A DNA stretch of 64,000 bases from Caldilineales bacterium (GTDB taxonomy: Bacteria > Chloroflexota > Anaerolineae > J102). The stretch is taken from the NCBI GenBank assembly GCA_019695115.1, contig JAIBAP010000017.1, positions 8,416 through 72,415 of the forward strand, written 5' to 3'. Positions 1,881 to 59,700 of the stretch are shown here, one piece after another. The first letter of the stretch is position 1. Every line of letters begins with the position of its first letter. The notes under the pieces are model-generated. The model saw nothing but the letters and a program-made list of their open reading frames with translations. It was not told the DNA's origin and ran no database searches. Both the position numbers and the translations under genes were made by a program.

Positions 1881-1913
1881 GGAACACGCAATACGGAACA
1901 CGCACCACGCACC
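1881..1913. repeat. GGAACAC-family short tandem repeat (intergenic)
   Basis: ggaacacgcaatacggaacacgcaccacgcacc between two + genes. Confidence 0.6.
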
Positions 1914-1928
1914 CCCTCCCTCACACCC

Positions 1929-3002
1929 ATGCCCACCCAACCCACCCGCGACGCCATCATGGCGGCTTTGAGCCATGTCCAGGAACCGGAACTGCACCGC
2001 GACCTGGTTTCCCTCAACATGATCCAGGACTTGCAGATCAGCAACGGCAACGTCGGCCTGACCGTTGTCCTCACCACACCCGCCTGCCCGCTCAAGGGCC
2101 AGATCGAAAGCGATGTGCGCAACGCCGTCATGAAAGTGGCGGGCGTGCAGCAGGTCAACGTCCGCTTCGATGCCAACGTGCGGGCCGACAACCGCATCAC
2201 CGGCCGCCTCAATCTACCCATCCGCAACATCATCGCCGTCGCCAGCGGCAAGGGCGGGGTGGGCAAGACGACCGTCTCAGTCAACCTGGCCGTAGCCCTG
2301 GCCCAGATGGGCGCCCAGGTCGGGCTGCTCGACGCCGACATCTATGGCCCCAACGTGCCGCAGATGCTGGGCGTGTCGAACATGCCCAATCCGCAGGATG
2401 GCAAGCTGGTGCCGGCGCGGGCCTATGGGCTGCAACTGATGTCGATGGGCTTCATGATCCAGCCCGACCAGGCCGTGATCTGGCGCGGGCCGATGCTGCA
2501 TTCAGCTATCCGCCAGCTGTTCACCGATGTGGCCTGGGCCGAGGTGGACTACATGGTGGTGGATCTGCCGCCCGGCACTGGCGATGCCCAGCTCACCCTG
2601 GCCCAGTCGGTGCCCCTCACCGGTGGCGTCATCGTTTCCACCCCGCAGGATGTGGCTTTGTCCGACGCCCGTCGCGGGCTGAACGCCTTCCGCCAGTTGC
2701 AGGTGCCAGTGCTGGGGATGATCGAGAACATGTCCTATTTCATTGCCCCCGATAGCGGCCAGCGCTACGAAATCTTCGGCTATGGCGGGGCCGAGCGCGC
2801 CGCCAGGGAATTGGGCGTGCCTTTCCTCGGCCGGCTACCGCTGGACCCCCGCGCCCGCGAGGGCGGCGACCGCGGCAAACCGATCGTCGCCACCTACCCC
2901 GATTCCGAGATCGCCCAGGCCTTCCGCGACATCGCCAGGCAGCTTGCCGCCCAGGTCAGCGTCCTCAGCTTCCGGCCGGACCCAGAACTGAAGATCATCT
3001 GA
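1929..3002 (+). CDS. apbC: Mrp/ApbC/NBP35-family Fe-S cluster carrier ATPase
   Basis: N-terminal DUF59-like segment, deviant Walker [15 protein letters not shown], and conserved CxxC region of Mrp/ApbC. Start re-placed at ATG 1929 (MPTQPTRD); the 5' extension of track ORF 1632..3002 runs through intergenic repeats. Confidence 0.9.
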
Positions 3003-3003
3003 A

Positions 3004-3091
3004 CCGGGGAACGTGTTGCGTCGTGCGTATTGTGTAACTCACAAGCCAGAACCACACGGAACCCGGAACCCGGAACCCGGAACACGGAACA
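3004..3091. repeat. Palindromic GTGTTCC / GGAACCC heptamer array
   Basis: ggaacgtgttgcgtcgtgcgt … acggaacccggaacccggaacccggaacacggaaca. Left arm is the reverse complement of the right arm family. Confidence 0.65.
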
Positions 3092-3099
3092 TGCAAACA

Positions 3100-57074: not shown

Positions 57075-57122
57075 ACGGGATGAGGTCGAGAGGGGTGGGG
57101 CAAGCTGCAAGCGGGACGAGTC

Positions 57123-57548
57123 TTACTTCCCCGCGATCCGATAGCTCCACCCATTCAGATGGCCGTATTGCCCGCCGTAGTCGAACCGGCCGCAGACCCG
57201 CGCCGGGCAGAATTTGGCGGGCGGCGTCCCCACTTCGGTGCAGTTGGGTTCTGCTTCGATCTGGGCTCGTTCCAGCCAGATGGCCGGCTCGGTGAGATAC
57301 AGGGCGCCATCGCGCTCGACCGTATCCTGGCCGAGGGCCTCGACCTCGAAACTGCTCAGATAAACGCCGTTCGTGCAGATGTCTTGACCGGCGTAGGTGG
57401 CGGGCGCCGTCATCAGGTCACCGAAGGGTACATCCGCCGTTGGCGGCGAGGCCGGGGTGGGAGTGGCAGGCGGCTGGGTGGGCGGGGCGGCGCAGGCGCC
57501 AAGCAGGATGATGAGGGGAATCAGATAACCAATCATACGGTGTTTCAT
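57123..57548 (-). CDS. Hypothetical lipoprotein
   Basis: ATG at rc 57546-57548. MKHRMIGYLIPLIILLGAC lipobox. Pro/Thr-rich linker. Four Cys in the C-terminal domain. Confidence 0.5.
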   Translation of the reverse strand: MKHRMIGYLIPLIILLGACAAPPTQPPATPTPASPPTADVPFGDLMTAPATYAGQDICTNGVYLSSFEVEALGQDTVERDGALYLTEPAIWLERAQIEAEPNCTEVGTPPAKFCPARVCGRFDYGGQYGHLNGWSYRIAGK

Positions 57549-57659
57549 GGGGCATAACTCCACAGAAGAGAGCAAAGCACGGATCGGACAGCATCGAACC
57601 ATCGCTTTCCAGACGTCGCTCCTGCTTGCTGGGTTCCGCAACCGCCCATTGAACTGACT

Positions 57660-59510
57660 TCAGTTTAGCGCCGCCTGCGGCAGCACCGCCCTATAGGCCT
57701 GGAACACATCCACCTGCTGCTCCATCTCCTGGCGGAACTGGCGGGTGTAGAGCCGATAGTAGCGCCCTTGCTGGCGGATCAACTCAGCGTGCGACCCCAT
57801 CTCGATGATGCGGCCCTGCTCGATCACCAGGATGCGGTCGGCGCGGCGGATGGTGGACAAGCGGTGGGCGATGACGAAACTCGTGCGCCCCGCCATCACC
57901 TCCTCCATCCCGCGCTGGATCAGCGATTCGGTGATCGTATCGACCGAGCTGGTGGCCTCGTCCATGATGAAGATATCAGGCTCGGCCAGCACCGCCCGCG
58001 CCAGGCTGATCAACTGCTTCTGGCCGACCGAGAGCAGCACACCGCCCTCGCCCACCTGCTCGTCATAGCCTTTTTCCAGCGTGATGATGAAGTCATGGGC
58101 GCCGGCCAGCCTGGCTGCGGCCTCGATCTCCTCGTCGCTGGCGGCCAGCCGCCCATAGCGCAGGTTCTCGCGAATCGTGCCGGAGAACAAGTGCGGCGTC
58201 TGCAAGACGATGCCCAGCCGCGATTGGATGGCGTGCAGCGAGAGTTCAGTGTAGTCGCGGCCGCCGATGCGGATGACCCCGGCCTTGGGTTCGTAGAAAC
58301 GGCAGATGAGGTTGATGATGGTCGATTTGCCGCTGCCGGTGGGGCCGACGATGGCGATGGTCTCGCCCTGGCGGACGCGCAGGTTGAAGCCGCGCAGCAC
58401 GGGCTTGTCGGCGCTGTAATAGAAATCGACGCCCTCGAATTCGATGTCCCCGCGCAAGGTGCCGGGATCGAGCGTCTCTGCCCGGTCCTTCACTTCCGGC
58501 TCGGCGTCGATCAACGAGAACACGCGCTCGGCCGAAGCAATGGCATGTTGGGTCTCGGAATAGACGCGGGCCAGGTCCTGGATCGGCCACATCATAAAGG
58601 TGATATAGGAGACGAATGCCTGGATGCCGCCGATGGTCATCACCCCCGCCGCCGTCGCCATCTCGGCCTGCAAACCGCTGCGGACGACCACCGCCCCCAC
58701 GGCAAAGGCGCTGATGATCTGCACCGCCGGCAAGAACAAGGCCGACAGCCAGGCAGCGCGATAGCCGGAGCCAAAACGCTGCTCGGAGAGGGCGGCGAAC
58801 TCGGACAGGTTGGCGTCCTCGCGACCCAGGGCCTTGACCACGCGCACGCCGGTGATATTCTCGTTGTACTGGCCGGTGATCTTGGAGTTGAACTTGCGCA
58901 CCTGCCGGAACTGCACCAAGATCCGCTTCTTGAACTGCACGGCCACCACCAGCAGGATGGGGATCATGGCCGAAACAATCAGCGTCAACTGCCAGTTGAT
59001 GCGGGCCATGAAGAAGAGGGCGGCGCCGATATTCATCACCCCCCACACCACATCCAGCATCCCCCAACTGACCAACCAGGCGATGCGCTCGGAATCCGAG
59101 GTCAGCCGTGACATGATCCAGCCCACGGGCGTGCGGTCGTAGTAGGAGAAAGAAAGCTCTTGGAGATGGTTGAACATCTGGCGGCGCACATCGTATTGCA
59201 CGCGCTCGCCCAGCACCCCGGCCAGGTAGATGAAGACGAAGACCGCCACTGCCTGGACGACGATGAGGACGCCGTACTGCGTCACGATGCCCACCAGCGC
59301 CGCGCGGTTGCCGGGCACGATGCCCTCATCCACCATGCGCTTGCTCAGGTAGGTGAAATAGGAGTCCGTGACCGAGACGAGGGCGATGGCCGCGAGGAAG
59401 CCGGCCACCATCGGCCAGTGCAGCTTCGTCTGCGCCAGCGTCCGCCAGAACGTCTGCCCGTTGAACTGCGAACTAAATTCTTCTTCTTCGAATTCGTGTG
59501 TATTGGCCAT
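57660..59510 (-). CDS. ABC exporter, fused permease-ATPase (half of heterodimeric pair)
   Basis: Six-TM domain then Walker A GPTGSGKST, LSVGQKQ signature, Walker B IFIMDEATS. Confidence 0.9.
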   Translation of the reverse strand: MANTHEFEEEEFSSQFNGQTFWRTLAQTKLHWPMVAGFLAAIALVSVTDSYFTYLSKRMVDEGIVPGNRAALVGIVTQYGVLIVVQAVAVFVFIYLAGVLGERVQYDVRRQMFNHLQELSFSYYDRTPVGWIMSRLTSDSERIAWLVSWGMLDVVWGVMNIGAALFFMARINWQLTLIVSAMIPILLVVAVQFKKRILVQFRQVRKFNSKITGQYNENITGVRVVKALGREDANLSEFAALSEQRFGSGYRAAWLSALFLPAVQIISAFAVGAVVVRSGLQAEMATAAGVMTIGGIQAFVSYITFMMWPIQDLARVYSETQHAIASAERVFSLIDAEPEVKDRAETLDPGTLRGDIEFEGVDFYYSADKPVLRGFNLRVRQGETIAIVGPTGSGKSTIINLICRFYEPKAGVIRIGGRDYTELSLHAIQSRLGIVLQTPHLFSGTIRENLRYGRLAASDEEIEAAARLAGAHDFIITLEKGYDEQVGEGGVLLSVGQKQLISLARAVLAEPDIFIMDEATSSVDTITESLIQRGMEEVMAGRTSFVIAHRLSTIRRADRILVIEQGRIIEMGSHAELIRQQGRYYRLYTRQFRQEMEQQVDVFQAYRAVLPQAALN

Positions 59511-59584
59511 ATTCTTTCAGAATGACACAAATAAAAGGAAACACAGATGCTACGTTCCCTGAGAGATCGGCGGCAAAAAACTCA

Positions 59585-59700
59585 AATCGCACCCAGGCGT
59601 ACTCGCTCCGCCATCCACGGAACCCGGAACGCCTCGCACGTAGGCGTGCTCGCTCCACCAGCCACGGAACACGGAACACGGAACACGGAACAAACCTCAC
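59585..59700. repeat. GGAACCC / GGAACAC heptamer array
   Basis: …ccacggaacccggaacgcctcgcacgtaggcgtgctcgctccaccagccacggaacacggaacacggaacacggaacaaacc. Confidence 0.65.

What the first reader, a model, noticed from the sequence alone, without database searches (positions are those of the whole stretch)
1881..59700. GGAACAC/GGAACCC heptamer family: tandem repeats arranged as palindromes in at least seven intergenic gaps
The same heptamer family recurs at 1881-1913, 3004-3091, 17188-17222, 19747-19842, 24677-24712, 45892-46062 and 59585-59700. Several arrays are two-armed: a GTGTTCC/GTGTTGC arm followed by the reverse-complement GGAACAC arm, so each locus can fold into a long imperfect hairpin. 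They occur between co-directional, convergent and divergent genes alike, so they are not simply terminators. This density of short-period palindromic repeats in a 64 kb window is unusual. It resembles REP/BIME-like or HIP-like genome-wide elements but with a 7-nt period. As far as I can recall, this particular heptamer/palindrome organisation is not a described element class.
Basis: seen in the sequence. Interest (0 to 1): 0.6.

Follow-up and report, generated by a model that had tools for sequence, protein, structure and literature searches.

The report
Heptamer tandem-repeat arrays between genes
The spaces between genes in this Chloroflexota (Caldilineales-like) genome are packed with fast-evolving runs of 7-base repeats, often as two complementary arms that fold into long hairpins; the feature is real and striking, but it belongs to a repeat class already described in cyanobacteria and Xanthomonas, whose function is still unknown.

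Summary
All seven GGAACAC/GGAACCC loci exist, and GGAACAC occurs 19 times against 7.0±2.5 expected. The window has 21 period-7 arrays (0.1 expected) from at least six unit families, all in the 12% of non-coding DNA, in 16 of 31 gaps of 60 nt or more.

Five two-armed loci fold strongly (z −5 to −9). A strain 97.7% identical carries arrays at the same sites with different copy numbers. One 28-bp stem there is rewritten by 7 compensatory pair changes.

Polarity is fixed: the G-rich strand reads away from the nearest gene, and inverted pairs are G-arm-first in 30 of 31 cases across phyla. Genes abutted by the A/C-rich arm lack a Shine-Dalgarno site, which array-less relatives keep.

(GGAACMC)3 arrays occur in at least 84 genomes of about 14 phyla.

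This matches cyanobacterial STRR, Mrázek's LSSR and the Xanthomonas/Nostoc heptamers of Rehm 2015, which show the same inverted pairs and the same strand rule. The claim that this is "not a described class" is therefore wrong. REP/BIME, HIP1, MITE and canonical terminators fail their tests.

Best reading: slippage-driven, self-templating SSR arrays filtered by orientation, probably serving as SD-free leaders and intercistronic hairpins. Function is inferred, not shown.

The parts
1881..1913 (+). Single A/C-rich arm (GGAACAC GCAATAC GGAACAC GCACCAC GCACC). It ends 16 nt before the ATG (1929) of the Mrp/NUBPL-like gene. No SD.
3011..3035 (+). Degenerate G/T-rich arm (GTGTTGC GTCGTGC GTATTGT) that starts 9 nt after the stop at 3002.
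3054..3091 (+). A/C-rich arm, (GGAACCC)3(GGAACAC)2, running into the ATG (3090) of an ABC ATPase gene. It pairs only weakly with 3011-3035 (z -1.2).
15462..15553 (+). G-rich 7/8-mers (GGGGAGAC, GGAGATT). On the - strand they read as a C-rich AATCTCC-type array upstream of the large - strand ORF.
16220..16247 (+). (CGTGAAG)4 arm. It pairs with 16263-16295 and lies between the GNAT (-) and OsmC (-) genes.
   Evidence: -45 kcal/mol, z -6.1 on the sense strand
16263..16295 (+). (TCACGTT)4.7 arm that abuts or overlaps the GNAT stop (16291).
17186..17221 (+). (GGAACCC)3 with a degenerate lead-in. On the - strand it is (GGGTTCC)3, starting 4 nt after the adenosine deaminase stop (17225). Single arm, identical in L001.
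19747..19775 (+). (GTGTTGC/GTGTTCC)4 arm that starts 4 nt after the UbiD stop (19743).
19787..19842 (+). (GGAACAC/GAAACAC/GCAACAC)7.7 arm that ends 8 nt before the E2 ATG (19850). The hairpin is -47 kcal/mol, z -5.2, and 12 nt before the AUG stay unpaired.
22592..22618 (+). (GATTGGA/GATTAGA)3.9 arm that starts at the amidohydrolase stop (22590).
22621..22658 (+). (CCAATCT)5.4 arm. It forms a perfect stem around a central GGCGCC (26 bp in the fold; 28 of 29 mirror positions complementary) at -44.5 kcal/mol, z -8.7. 21 nt before the SDR ATG (22669) stay unpaired.
24675..24712 (+). (GGAACCC/GCAACAC/GAAACCC)5.4 single arm in a divergent gap. It ends 2 nt before the ATG at 24714. L001 has one more unit.
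28961..29088 (+). (GCAGGTG/GCAAGTG)18. The first unit contains the TAG stop of the NTP-transferase gene. L001 has about 20 units.
29093..29131 (+). (GTTGATT/GTTGACT)5.6
29165..29189 (+). 8-mer array (CTTGTCTA)3. On the - strand it reads TAGACAAG, at the DinB-like stop (29170).
31578..31627 (+). 8-mer array (AGTAGACA)6.2 at the HtrA-like stop (31582). It is the inverse of the array at 29165.
31654..31677 (+). (GTTGATT)3.4. One of the exceptions to the polarity rule.
44700..44744 (+). (AATCTCC/AATAACC)6.4 single arm, followed by a C-run and the ATG at 44758 (CoxE-type VWA gene).
45893..45934 (+). (GTGTTGC)6 arm that starts 2 nt after the stop at 45891.
45959..46057 (+). GGAACAC-family arm of 14 units with a 42-nt higher-order repeat. 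It ends 7 nt before the XdhC-domain ATG (46064). The hairpin is -72 kcal/mol.
50297..50323 (-). (ACGCACC)3.9 on the - strand, upstream of the PspC-domain gene, with an SD (AGGAG) between array and ATG.
50373..50398 (+). 8-mer array (TCTTTGTG)3
54464..54496 (+). (AGTAGGG/GGAAGTA) G-rich arm that starts 2 nt after the + strand stop at 54462.
54506..54544 (+). (CTCCCTA/CTCCTTA)5.7 arm next to the - strand stop at 54554. It forms a hairpin between convergent genes (-63 kcal/mol; z -5.4 on + and -3.8 on -).
59587..59692 (+). 47-nt higher-order repeat x1.9 that ends in (CACGGAA)4.3. On the - strand, GTGTTCC units start 5 nt after the ABC-transporter stop (59697).
61608..61640 (+). (GCAGGTC/GCAAGTG) array in the divergent gap next to the ABC gene's 5' end.
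61718..61750 (+). (GTTGATT/GTTGACT)4.7

Best explanation
These loci are heptanucleotide simple-sequence-repeat arrays of the STRR/LSSR kind. GGAACAC/GGAACCC/GCAACAC is one of at least six unit families in this genome.

**Shown**
- The arrays occupy only intergenic spacers.
- They stay at orthologous sites but change copy number and unit sequence far faster than their flanks.
- In two-armed loci the arms change together, so the palindrome stays perfect.
- Polarity is fixed: the G(+T)-rich strand reads 5'->3' away from the adjacent ORF. On the mRNA, a G/U-rich arm therefore follows the stop codon and an A/C-rich, G-poor arm precedes the next start codon.

**Inferred mechanism**
- Arrays arise and resize by slipped-strand mispairing.
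- The arms of a pair are homogenised by hairpin-templated strand switching (quasi-palindrome correction), possibly aided by selection for pairing.
- Selection filters orientation. Only the strand free of NTG start codons and SD-like G-runs is tolerated just upstream of a start codon.

**Inferred function**
- The A/C-rich arm plus the C-run before the ATG serves as an unstructured leader for Shine-Dalgarno-independent initiation.
- The two-armed version folds into a 26-40 bp intercistronic hairpin that leaves 8-21 nt of leader unpaired. It would affect mRNA stability, processing or stop-start coupling rather than act as a classical terminator.
For: **Class and enrichment**
- 21 period-7 arrays against 0.1 expected, all intergenic.
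- 16 of 31 gaps carry arrays.

**Hypervariability at fixed sites**
- L001 is 97.7% identical over 14.5 kb and has arrays at the same ten sites.
- Unit counts differ at 19747/19787, 24675 and 28961.

**Concerted evolution of arms**
- The 70-nt hairpin at 22591 differs from L001 at 19 positions, against about 1.6 expected from background divergence.
- 7 pairs are changed on both sides, and 28 of 29 pairs are kept in both genomes, including mirrored internal variants.
- L004 carries both unit variants in one array.

**Hairpins**
- z -5.2 to -8.7 at five loci.
- The A/C arm is always the longer one, which leaves an unpaired leader.

**Polarity**
- By my curated reading, 20 of 24 arms in the window obey the rule (binomial p about 8e-4).
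- Inverted pairs are G-arm-first in 30 of 31 cases, including 25 of 26 in other phyla.
- The G-strand's 5' neighbour is the closer gene in 82 arrays against 20 in other phyla.
- Rehm et al. report the same rule.

**SD replacement**
- 7 of 7 genes with an array abutting the start lack an SD core.
- For the E2 gene, 7 of 7 array-less relatives have an SD and 3 of 3 array-bearing ones do not.
- MacGregor 2015 found the same for TAACTGA arrays.

**Prior suggestion**
- Transcript stability and translational coupling have been proposed for STRR hairpins (PMC2670836).
Against: - There are no expression data, so every functional step is inferred.
- Sense and antisense RNA folds are equally stable. Nothing shows that pairing is selected at the RNA level rather than kept at the DNA level.
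- The UbiD-E2 hairpin has decayed in L001 (z -1.2), so pairing is not essential at every locus.
- Relatives at 66-78% E2 identity (L003, L136, L137) lack arrays altogether, so the arrays are dispensable for these genes.
- The GTTGATT arrays break the polarity rule.
- The orientation filter explains the arm before a start codon better than it explains why the arm after a stop codon is G-rich.
- Recurrence of GGAACNC units in about 14 phyla is not predicted by pure slippage from local seeds.
Confidence: 0.55

Rival explanations
1. Neutral by-product. A slippage-prone replication or repair background in this lineage lets heptamer arrays fill any unconstrained spacer up to the coding boundary. Purifying selection removes only harmful orientations, and the arrays themselves do nothing.
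For: - Distribution is sporadic and lineage-specific: close relatives lack arrays.
- Turnover is very fast.
- Arrays run right up to, and into, stop and start codons.
- There is no RNA-specific pairing signature.
- The L001 hairpin has decayed with no visible consequence.
- Mrázek's polymerase-slippage rationale for a 7-nt period.
Against: - The G-first chirality of 30 of 31 pairs and the G-rich bias after stop codons need more than avoidance of upstream start codons.
- SD loss at array-bearing genes implies that the leader still supports initiation.
- The same few unit families recur at many loci and in many phyla.
- Mirrored variants keep stems perfect.
Confidence: 0.25
2. Transcription punctuation. 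The two-armed arrays are U-tract-less ('I-shaped') terminators or attenuators. The C-rich strand that reads into genes acts as a Rho-loading pad, which silences untranslated or antisense read-in.
For: - Hairpins of -44 to -72 kcal/mol begin 0-9 nt after stop codons, including one between convergent genes.
- Canonical terminators are not enriched: 7 found against 10 expected in 20 kb.
- Inward-reading strands such as CCAATCT, CTCCCTA and ACGCACC are 43-57% C with 0-14% G, which is rut-like (read from the sequence).
- PMC2670836 considers termination for an STRR hairpin.
Against: - The hairpins sit inside a gene order (UbiD-E2-amidohydrolase-SDR) that is conserved down to 66% identity.
- No T-run follows them.
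- Single-armed arrays cannot form hairpins.
- GGAACAC itself has G equal to C, so it is a poor rut site.
- Nostoc shows a related strand preference (G-rich strand on the non-coding strand), and by general knowledge cyanobacteria lack Rho.
- A normal intrinsic terminator exists at 15671-15698, so this organism uses the canonical type.
Confidence: 0.15
3. Protein-binding arrays. Each 7-nt unit is one binding site for a single-strand nucleic-acid-binding protein. Candidates are a cold-shock-domain protein, whose footprint is about 7 nt by general knowledge, ribosomal protein S1, or a CsrA-like protein that recognises ANGGA. On this reading the arrays would form a post-transcriptional regulon.
For: - Strict 7-nt periodicity and a limited repertoire of units reused at many loci.
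- The same GGAACNC units sit directly upstream of start codons in distant phyla, for example Paludibacter L067.
- MacGregor 2015 proposes S1, Csp or CsrA for TAACTGA arrays.
- The Nostoc reporter work postulates an unidentified heptamer-binding partner.
Against: - The unit at one orthologous site can be swapped for an unrelated one: GCAACAC-type in L002 and L003 against CCAATCT in the window.
- At least six unrelated unit families would need several binders, or one with no sequence specificity.
- The genes concerned are unrelated housekeeping functions.
- No candidate protein was identified here.
Confidence: 0.15
4. G-quadruplex / i-motif DNA elements, as proposed for GGGAATC and GGGGAYT repeats. 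The G-rich strand would form G4 structures that modulate transcription or replication.
For: - (GGGTTCC)n, the complement of GGAACCC, fits the G3-N4 pattern. It makes up 98 of the arrays found in other phyla.
- It occurs here at 3057-3078, 17200-17221 and 24675-24690.
- AGTAGGG and GGGAGAC units also carry G3 tracts.
- The position and strand rule is identical to the one Rehm et al. report.
Against: - Most arrays in this window have no G3 tract on either strand: GTGTTCC/GTGTTGC, GCAGGTG, GATTGGA, GTTGATT, CGTGAAG. They nevertheless follow the same architecture.
- Copy numbers range from 3 to 18, with no preference for four.
Confidence: 0.1
5. A mobile or transposase-linked repeat (REP/BIME with RAYT, or a MITE), or phase-variation contingency loci.
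For: - The same composite order, GCAGGTG array then GTTGATT array, occurs twice (28961-29131 and 61608-61750).
- The DinB/HtrA gene pair is flanked by inverted 8-mer arrays and direct GTTGATT arrays.
- Copy number varies between strains.
Against: - There is no conserved full-length element, no terminal inverted repeats with target duplications, and no GTAG/CTAC REP head.
- No transposase or RAYT domain appears in any scanned ORF.
- The arrays are at orthologous sites in relatives.
- The neighbouring genes are metabolic housekeeping genes, and 7-nt steps in untranslated spacers do not shift reading frames.
Confidence: 0.04

Closest known systems
Heptameric G-rich intergenic repeats of Xanthomonas (GGGAATC) and Nostoc (GGGGAYT), Rehm et al. 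2015, PMC4692102
   Same: - Tandem 7-nt units, strongly intergenic, spread over the genome near unrelated housekeeping genes.
- Copy number and sequence vary between close relatives, while the site and the type (single or inverted pair) are kept.
- 70-75 'convergent' inverted pairs per Xanthomonas genome.
[quoted passage not shown]
- Under-represented between divergent genes.
   Different: - Different phylum (Chloroflexota) and different units.
- Most units here (GTGTTCC, GCAGGTG, GATTGGA, GTTGATT) lack G3 tracts, so G-quadruplex formation cannot be the common principle.
- Several unit families coexist in one genome.
- No preference for four copies.
Cyanobacterial STRR (short tandemly repeated repetitive) heptamers
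   Same: - 7-bp tandem units in intergenic regions of filamentous bacteria.
- Some form hairpins between co-transcribed genes such as hupS-hupL.
- Proposed roles are transcript stability, translational coupling or termination (PMC2670836).
- Heptamers near start codons affect reporter expression in Nostoc (bioRxiv 10.1101/2022.06.06.494920).
   Different: - AT-richer units in a different phylum.
- The perfect mirrored palindromes and the SD replacement documented here are not, to my knowledge, part of the STRR description.
TAACTGA direct repeats of marine Beggiatoaceae, cyanobacteria and Bacteroidetes, MacGregor 2015, PMC4679880
   Same: - Heptamer arrays end a few nt upstream of start codons in one orientation.
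- SD sequences are rare in the gaps that carry repeats.
- The same unit is shared by distant phyla.
- Downstream gene functions are unrelated.
   Different: - A single dominant unit, and almost no inverted pairs (one in 170 sets).
- Only 2-6 copies per set.
- No G-rich arm after stop codons.
REP/BIME elements of Enterobacteria and Pseudomonas
   Same: Intergenic, able to form hairpins, found between co-directional and convergent genes, and thought to stabilise upstream mRNA.
   Different: - REPs are conserved imperfect palindromes of about 35 nt with a GTAG/CTAC head, spread by RAYT transposases.
- They are not tandem 7-mers, and their sequence is conserved between copies.
- In this window the stems are built from slippage-prone units that differ between loci.
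Quasi-palindrome correction by template switching (general knowledge: Ripley; Lovett laboratory)
   Same: It would explain why changes in one arm are mirrored in the other, which keeps stems perfect.
   Different: It is known as a point-mutation mechanism in E. coli and yeast reporters. Its action on tandem-repeat arms is only inferred here.

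Membership tests
Heptanucleotide SSR arrays (STRR / LSSR class) | Head-to-tail tandem copies of a 7-nt unit, longer than chance allows | tested here: met
   21 arrays of 3-18 units against 0.10 in shuffles. Periods 5, 6 and 8-10 give 0-4 arrays.
Heptanucleotide SSR arrays (STRR / LSSR class) | Over-representation in non-coding DNA | tested here: met
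   0 of 21 arrays lie inside genes, although only 12% of the window is non-coding.
Heptanucleotide SSR arrays (STRR / LSSR class) | Copy-number and unit variation between close relatives at a conserved site | tested here: met
   Window against L001 (97.7% nt identity): 5 of 10 shared arrays differ in unit number or unit type.
Heptanucleotide SSR arrays (STRR / LSSR class) | The same unit dispersed over many loci of the genome | tested here: met
   GGAACAC family at 8 gaps, AATCTCC/CCAATCT at 3, GTTGATT at 3, GCAGGTG at 2. Only 64 kb of the genome could be examined.
Rehm-type heptamer repeats (Xanthomonas/Nostoc) | The G-rich strand abuts its 5' neighbouring ORF: non-coding strand upstream of starts, coding strand after stops | tested here: met
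   20 of 24 arms in my curated map of the window. 82 against 20 in loci from other phyla. Rule as stated.
Rehm-type heptamer repeats (Xanthomonas/Nostoc) | Inverted pairs in convergent (G-arm-first) orientation | tested here: met
   30 of 31 pairs.
Rehm-type heptamer repeats (Xanthomonas/Nostoc) | Each unit carries a G3-4 tract, so four units can form a G-quadruplex, and four units are preferred | tested here: not met
   Only the GGGTTCC, AGTAGGG and GGGAGAC arrays have G3. The main units (GTGTTCC/GTGTTGC, GCAGGTG, GATTGGA, GTTGATT) do not. Copy numbers are 3-18. Actual G4 folding cannot be tested here.
REP/BIME | A conserved imperfect palindromic unit of about 20-40 nt (GTAG/CTAC head) repeated across loci | tested here: not met
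   The arms are tandem 7-mers, and the loops and spacers share no sequence between loci.
REP/BIME | Associated RAYT (Y1 transposase-like) gene in the genome | not testable with these tools
   No such domain appears in the ORFs scanned, but only 64 kb of the genome is available.
HIP1-like dispersed palindromes | A single short palindrome (such as GCGATCGC), over-represented and dispersed, mostly inside genes | tested here: not met
   The elements are tandem arrays found only between genes.
Intrinsic (Rho-independent) terminator | A G+C-rich hairpin followed directly by a T-run | tested here: not met
   The right arms are followed by C-rich leaders and an ATG. The scan reports no terminator at any array. 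The one convincing terminator lies elsewhere, at 15671-15698.
CRISPR array | 24-48 nt repeats separated by unique spacers of similar length | tested here: not met
   The units are 7 nt and contiguous.
Known structured RNA family (Rfam) | Match to a curated covariance model | tested here: not met
   The only hit in the window is a tRNA at 26173-26245.

The most novel reading that the evidence does not exclude
The GGAACNC-type heptamer arrays, and their sister units, may be a cis-acting grammar shared across phyla rather than slippage debris. A conserved component of the expression machinery would read them: the ribosome or S1, or a cold-shock-domain protein with a footprint of about 7 nt. The A/C-rich arm would replace the Shine-Dalgarno site for initiation. 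In two-armed loci the hairpin would bring the upstream stop codon and the downstream start codon to the base of one stem, so that terminating ribosomes are handed over across an 80-170 nt spacer. The universal G-arm-first chirality would be the signature of this use.
Probability: 0.12. Interest if true: 0.75.

Novelty: new member of a known kind. Interest (0 to 1): 0.4.

Why it matters
Heptamer arrays have been known since 1990 (STRR) and are the commonest long simple repeat in many bacteria, yet their function is still open. This window contributes four things.

- **A new lineage.** The window comes from a Chloroflexota genome (Caldilineales-like) rich in heptamer arrays, and they are very dense: half of all sizeable gaps carry them. 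I found no paper linking heptamer repeats to Chloroflexi.
- **Evidence against the G-quadruplex explanation.** Units without G-tracts follow the same positional rules as the G-rich repeats of Xanthomonas and Nostoc.
- **A clean natural experiment.** Two genomes 97.7% identical differ by a complete, mirrored rewrite of a 28-bp stem. The arms must therefore be copied from each other or be under strong selection for pairing.
- **Two links worth testing.** Array presence goes with loss of the Shine-Dalgarno site, and the G-first chirality holds in about 14 phyla.

If the polarity rule and the SD replacement hold genome-wide, they give concrete hypotheses that can be tested in culturable heptamer-rich species such as Xanthomonas and Nostoc. 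For annotation, these arrays also explain contig breaks (L141 ends inside one) and mis-called start codons.

Tried and rejected
- **Exact-sequence look-up of the window's E2 protein:** not on record. I identified the organism from homologues instead. The closest named hit is a Caldilineales MAG at 78% identity.
- **Metagenome scan with the E2 protein:** it returned only distant relatives (≤67%) and no further close alleles.
- **Literature search by heptamer strings:** noise only. A search for 'heptamer repeats' plus 'Chloroflexi' found no papers.
- **Rfam:** nothing matches at any array.
- **Sense against antisense RNA folding**, looking for a G·U signature of selection at the RNA level: no difference, so inconclusive.
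- **Polar-growth model** (arrays crawling toward the ORF): the 5' and 3' halves of 91 arrays show no gradient of unit purity (p=0.28), so there is no support.
- **First crude ORF-adjacency test:** too noisy in high-GC DNA. I replaced it with a masked greedy gene call.
- **Promoter/terminator scan:** terminators are not enriched and none falls at an array.
- **Considered from reading the sequence only, and set aside:**
  - ECF-sigma promoters (-35 GGAAC). No CGT-type -10 lies at the right spacing on the same strand, and the arrays sit between stop and start codons.
  - CsrA sites (ANGGA). Present only in the GGAACAC units.
  - Pairing of the arrays with internal 16S rRNA segments. Untested speculation.
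  - Chi-like sites.
  - CRISPR, MITE, REP/BIME and HIP1. See the membership tests.
- **Assembly artefact:** rejected, because L001 and L141 come from independent samples and show the same arrays.

Full report

Yes. All seven loci contain the stated heptamers. GGAACAC occurs 19 times on both strands, against 7.04±2.52 in dinucleotide-preserving shuffles; none of 100 shuffles reaches 19.

A periodicity scan finds 21 period-7 tandem arrays, against 0, 4, 3, 4 and 0 for periods 5, 6, 8, 9 and 10. Shuffles give 0.10 period-7 arrays on average. None of the 21 lies in a gene, although only about 12% of the window is non-coding. Sixteen of the 31 gaps of 60 nt or more carry at least one array, and arrays often fill 40-80% of a gap.

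Besides GGAACAC/GGAACCC/GCAACAC there are at least five other unit families:

| Unit family | Position |
|---|---|
| CGTGAAG / TCACGTT | 16220-16295 |
| GATTGGA / CCAATCT, with AATCTCC | 22592-22658, 44700-44744, 15462-15553 |
| GCAGGTG | 28961-29088 (18 units), 61608-61640 |
| GTTGATT | 29093, 31654, 61718 |
| AGTAGGG / CTCCCTA | 54464-54544 |

There are also three 8-mer arrays.

**2. Context**

Pfam scans show ordinary chromosomal genes: transporters, UbiD, a 2-oxoacid dehydrogenase E2, an amidohydrolase, an SDR, Lon-like, PspC/LiaF-like and MgtE. The best named homologue is from a Caldilineales MAG. Rfam finds only a tRNA.

The GGAACAC family lies in six co-directional gaps and one divergent gap. 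The convergent gaps carry other units.

**3. Hairpins**

Two-armed loci fold strongly as RNA:

| Locus | z-score |
|---|---|
| 16215-16300 | −6.1 |
| 19744-19849 | −5.2 |
| 22589-22668 | −8.7 |
| 45892-46020 | −6.0 |
| 54460-54556 | −5.4 |
| 3003-3095 | −1.2 (weak) |

The 22589-22668 locus forms a perfect 26-bp stem around GGCGCC.

- The A/C-rich arm is always the longer one, and 8-21 nt before the next AUG stay unpaired.
- Sense and antisense strands fold equally well. Nothing therefore shows that pairing is selected at the RNA level rather than maintained in the DNA.
- No T-run follows the arms, and the terminator scan reports none at any array. A textbook terminator sits after the OsmC gene at 15671-15698.

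**4. Comparative evidence**

L001 is an independent MAG scaffold, syntenic with window 15.7-30.2 kb and 97.7% identical in nucleotides. It has arrays at the same ten sites.

- Half of them differ. There is one more unit at 24675 and two more at 28961. At 19787 the right arm is homogenised to GGAACAC, which destroys most of the pairing (z −1.2).
- Most telling, the 22591 hairpin has every unit changed in both arms: AGATTGG to TTATTGG, and AATCTCC to AATAACC.
- In 70 nt there are 19 differences, against about 1.6 expected. Seven base pairs are changed on both sides. In both genomes 28 of 29 pairs are kept, including mirrored internal variants.
- L004 (84% E2 identity) carries both unit variants in one array, as does window 44700-44744.

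I read this as follows. Arrays drift by slippage among a small repertoire of variants, and the two arms are kept complementary by copying from each other (hairpin-templated switching), by selection, or by both. This step is inferred.

More distant relatives behave differently.

- L002 (67%) has some arrays, including a GTGTTTC/GTGTTGC arm after the UbiD stop.
- L003, L136 and L137 (66-78%) score none, though L003 shows degenerate 7-nt periodicity.

Richness in arrays is therefore sporadic and lineage-specific.

**5. A fixed polarity**

In my curated map, 20 of 24 arms have their G>C strand reading 5'→3' away from the nearest ORF boundary, whichever way that ORF points (binomial p about 8e-4). 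Three of the four exceptions are the GTTGATT arrays.

It follows that inverted pairs should be 'G-arm first' on either strand. This holds for 5 of 5 automatically detected pairs in the window, 6 of 6 if the weak 3011/3054 pair is counted by eye.

The same rules hold elsewhere. These come from 84 genomes of about 14 phyla, including Acidobacteriota, Chloroflexota, Gemmatimonadota, Bacteroidota, Planctomycetota, Myxococcota, Actinomycetota and Bacillota.

- The units are mostly GGAACCC (98 arrays), with 20 GGAACAC.
- These loci carry 251 period-7 arrays, against 5-54 for periods 5, 6 and 8-10.
- 25 of 26 inverted pairs are G-arm first.
- The G-strand's 5' neighbour is the closer gene in 82 arrays against 20.
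- Individual loci look just like the window: a stop codon followed by (GGGTTCC)n, then a spacer, then (GGAACCC)n in an Acidobacteriota MAG, and (GGAACAC)n directly before an ATG in Paludibacter.

**6. Link to translation starts**

All seven genes whose start is abutted by an A/C-rich array lack a Shine-Dalgarno core and have a C-run before the ATG. SD sites are present at other genes: LacI, SBP, OsmC, Lon-like, PspC and MgtE.

For the E2 gene, all seven array-less relatives have an SD (AGGAG, AAGGA, GGGAG and so on). The three array-bearing genomes do not.

The A/C-rich orientation contains no ATG, GTG or TTG and no SD-like G-runs. The complementary orientation contains both. This is read directly from the units.

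**7. What is known**

- Rehm et al. 2015 (PMC4692102) describe GGGAATC arrays in Xanthomonas and GGGGAYT arrays in Nostoc. These are intergenic and variable between relatives while the site and type are kept. Each Xanthomonas genome has 70-75 convergent inverted pairs. The G-rich strand lies on the non-coding strand within 50 bp upstream of ORFs, or on the coding strand just after stops. They are under-represented between divergent genes, and their function is unknown.
- MacGregor 2015 (PMC4679880) describes TAACTGA arrays directly upstream of SD-less starts in Beggiatoaceae, cyanobacteria and Bacteroidetes. The paper also summarises Mrázek's finding that heptamers dominate long SSRs in many bacteria.
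- Cyanobacterial STRR hairpins have been proposed to stabilise transcripts, couple translation or terminate (PMC2670836).
- Reporter work in Nostoc implicates heptamers near recF and recO starts.

REP/BIME, HIP1, MITE, CRISPR and intrinsic terminators each fail a defining feature (see the membership tests).

The G-quadruplex feature that defines Rehm's class is not met by most units here. This argues that G4 formation is not the common principle.

**8. Best explanation and rivals**

*Shown.* These are hypervariable heptanucleotide SSR arrays at conserved intergenic sites. Their arms evolve in concert, and their polarity is fixed and general across phyla.

*Inferred.* They are generated by slippage, the arms are homogenised by template switching, and selection filters orientation on the mRNA. 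The A/C-rich arm works as an SD-free leader. The pair forms an intercistronic hairpin that affects stability, processing or coupling.

Confidence is 0.55 overall: about 0.9 for the identity and about 0.35 for the function.

| Rival | Confidence |
|---|---|
| Pure neutral by-product | 0.25 |
| Terminator or Rho-pad punctuation | 0.15 |
| Arrays of protein-binding sites (Csp, S1, CsrA-like) | 0.15 |
| G4 / i-motif elements | 0.10 |
| Mobile elements or contingency loci | 0.04 |

Two things remain unexplained by any of them: why the arm after a stop codon is G-rich, and why GGAACNC units recur across phyla.

**9. Verdict**

The feature is real, dense and well structured. It is a new member, in a new lineage and with new units, of a known but functionally unsolved repeat class.

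Interest is moderate (0.4). The mirrored rewrite of a stem between near-identical genomes, the SD replacement and the cross-phylum chirality are useful leads. None of them establishes a new mechanism.

Noticed in passing
window 44526-44701; 59524-59548: An AT-rich module of about 75 nt is tandemly repeated 2.3 times just upstream of the AATCTCC array. Each copy has a sigma-70-like TGACAC-N16-GATAAT, and the last partial copy merges into the heptamer array. A third copy of the core (GACACAAAT..AAACACAGAT) lies next to the 59587 array. These could be duplicated promoters or a small RNA gene.
   Followed up: partly
window 29093-29189 and 31578-31677: The divergent DinB-like/HtrA-like gene pair is bracketed by inverted 8-mer arrays (CTTGTCTA x3 and AGTAGACA x6). 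Outside these lie direct GTTGATT arrays. The layout looks like a cassette inserted into, or recombined through, a GTTGATT array. L001 has the same layout.
   Followed up: no
L001 5777-6112; L004 2657-3228 (window 21214-21217): Close relatives carry XisI (L001) or XisH+XisI (L004) genes between E2 and the amidohydrolase. In the window the two genes overlap by 4 nt and nothing is inserted. L136 has a YafQ-like toxin pair at the same spot, so this junction is an insertion hotspot.
   Followed up: no
window 1915-1928, 19838-19849, 22655-22668, 24705-24713, 44745-44757, 46054-46063: [quoted passage not shown] It may be a lineage-specific initiation context.
   Followed up: partly
window 11688-15449(-), 26308-27876(+), 41258-42640(-), 54554-56767(-): Four sizeable ORFs (1253, 522, 460 and 737 aa) have no Pfam or NCBIfam match.
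   Followed up: partly
window 41489-41626: A (GGTGGG)22 hexamer repeat lies inside the 460-aa minus-strand ORF and encodes a Pro/Thr-rich linker (..TPTPTPTPSPT..). It is the only long short-period repeat inside a gene, and its period is a multiple of three.
   Followed up: yes
window 52295-53141; 24263-24452: Two sets of coding repeats. The first has 75/153/303-nt periods in a 966-aa protein with choice-of-anchor Q and POMP-like repeats. The second is a 105-nt repeat x1.8 in a 270-aa coiled-coil-like ORF.
   Followed up: partly
window 15607-15651; 59587-59677; 61638-61703: Longer tandem repeats sit next to heptamer arrays: 16 nt x2.8, 47 nt x1.9 and an exact 31 nt x2.1. The 47-nt one, like the 42-nt repeat at 45959-46051, is a higher-order repeat built from heptamers.
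   Followed up: no
window 15671-15698 (- strand): A canonical intrinsic terminator (11-bp GC-rich stem plus T-run) follows the OsmC gene. This shows that the organism uses ordinary terminators alongside the heptamer hairpins.
   Followed up: yes
window 26173-26245 (-): A tRNA gene (Rfam RF00005, 71.6 bits) overlaps the 5' end of the longest ORF call at 26188-27876. The true start of that ORF must lie further downstream.
   Followed up: partly
L141 1-40: A Logan contig from another sample (SRR15734604), identical to the window over the part of it I read (its first 120 nt), begins inside the 19787-19842 array. Short-read assemblies evidently break at these repeats.
   Followed up: yes
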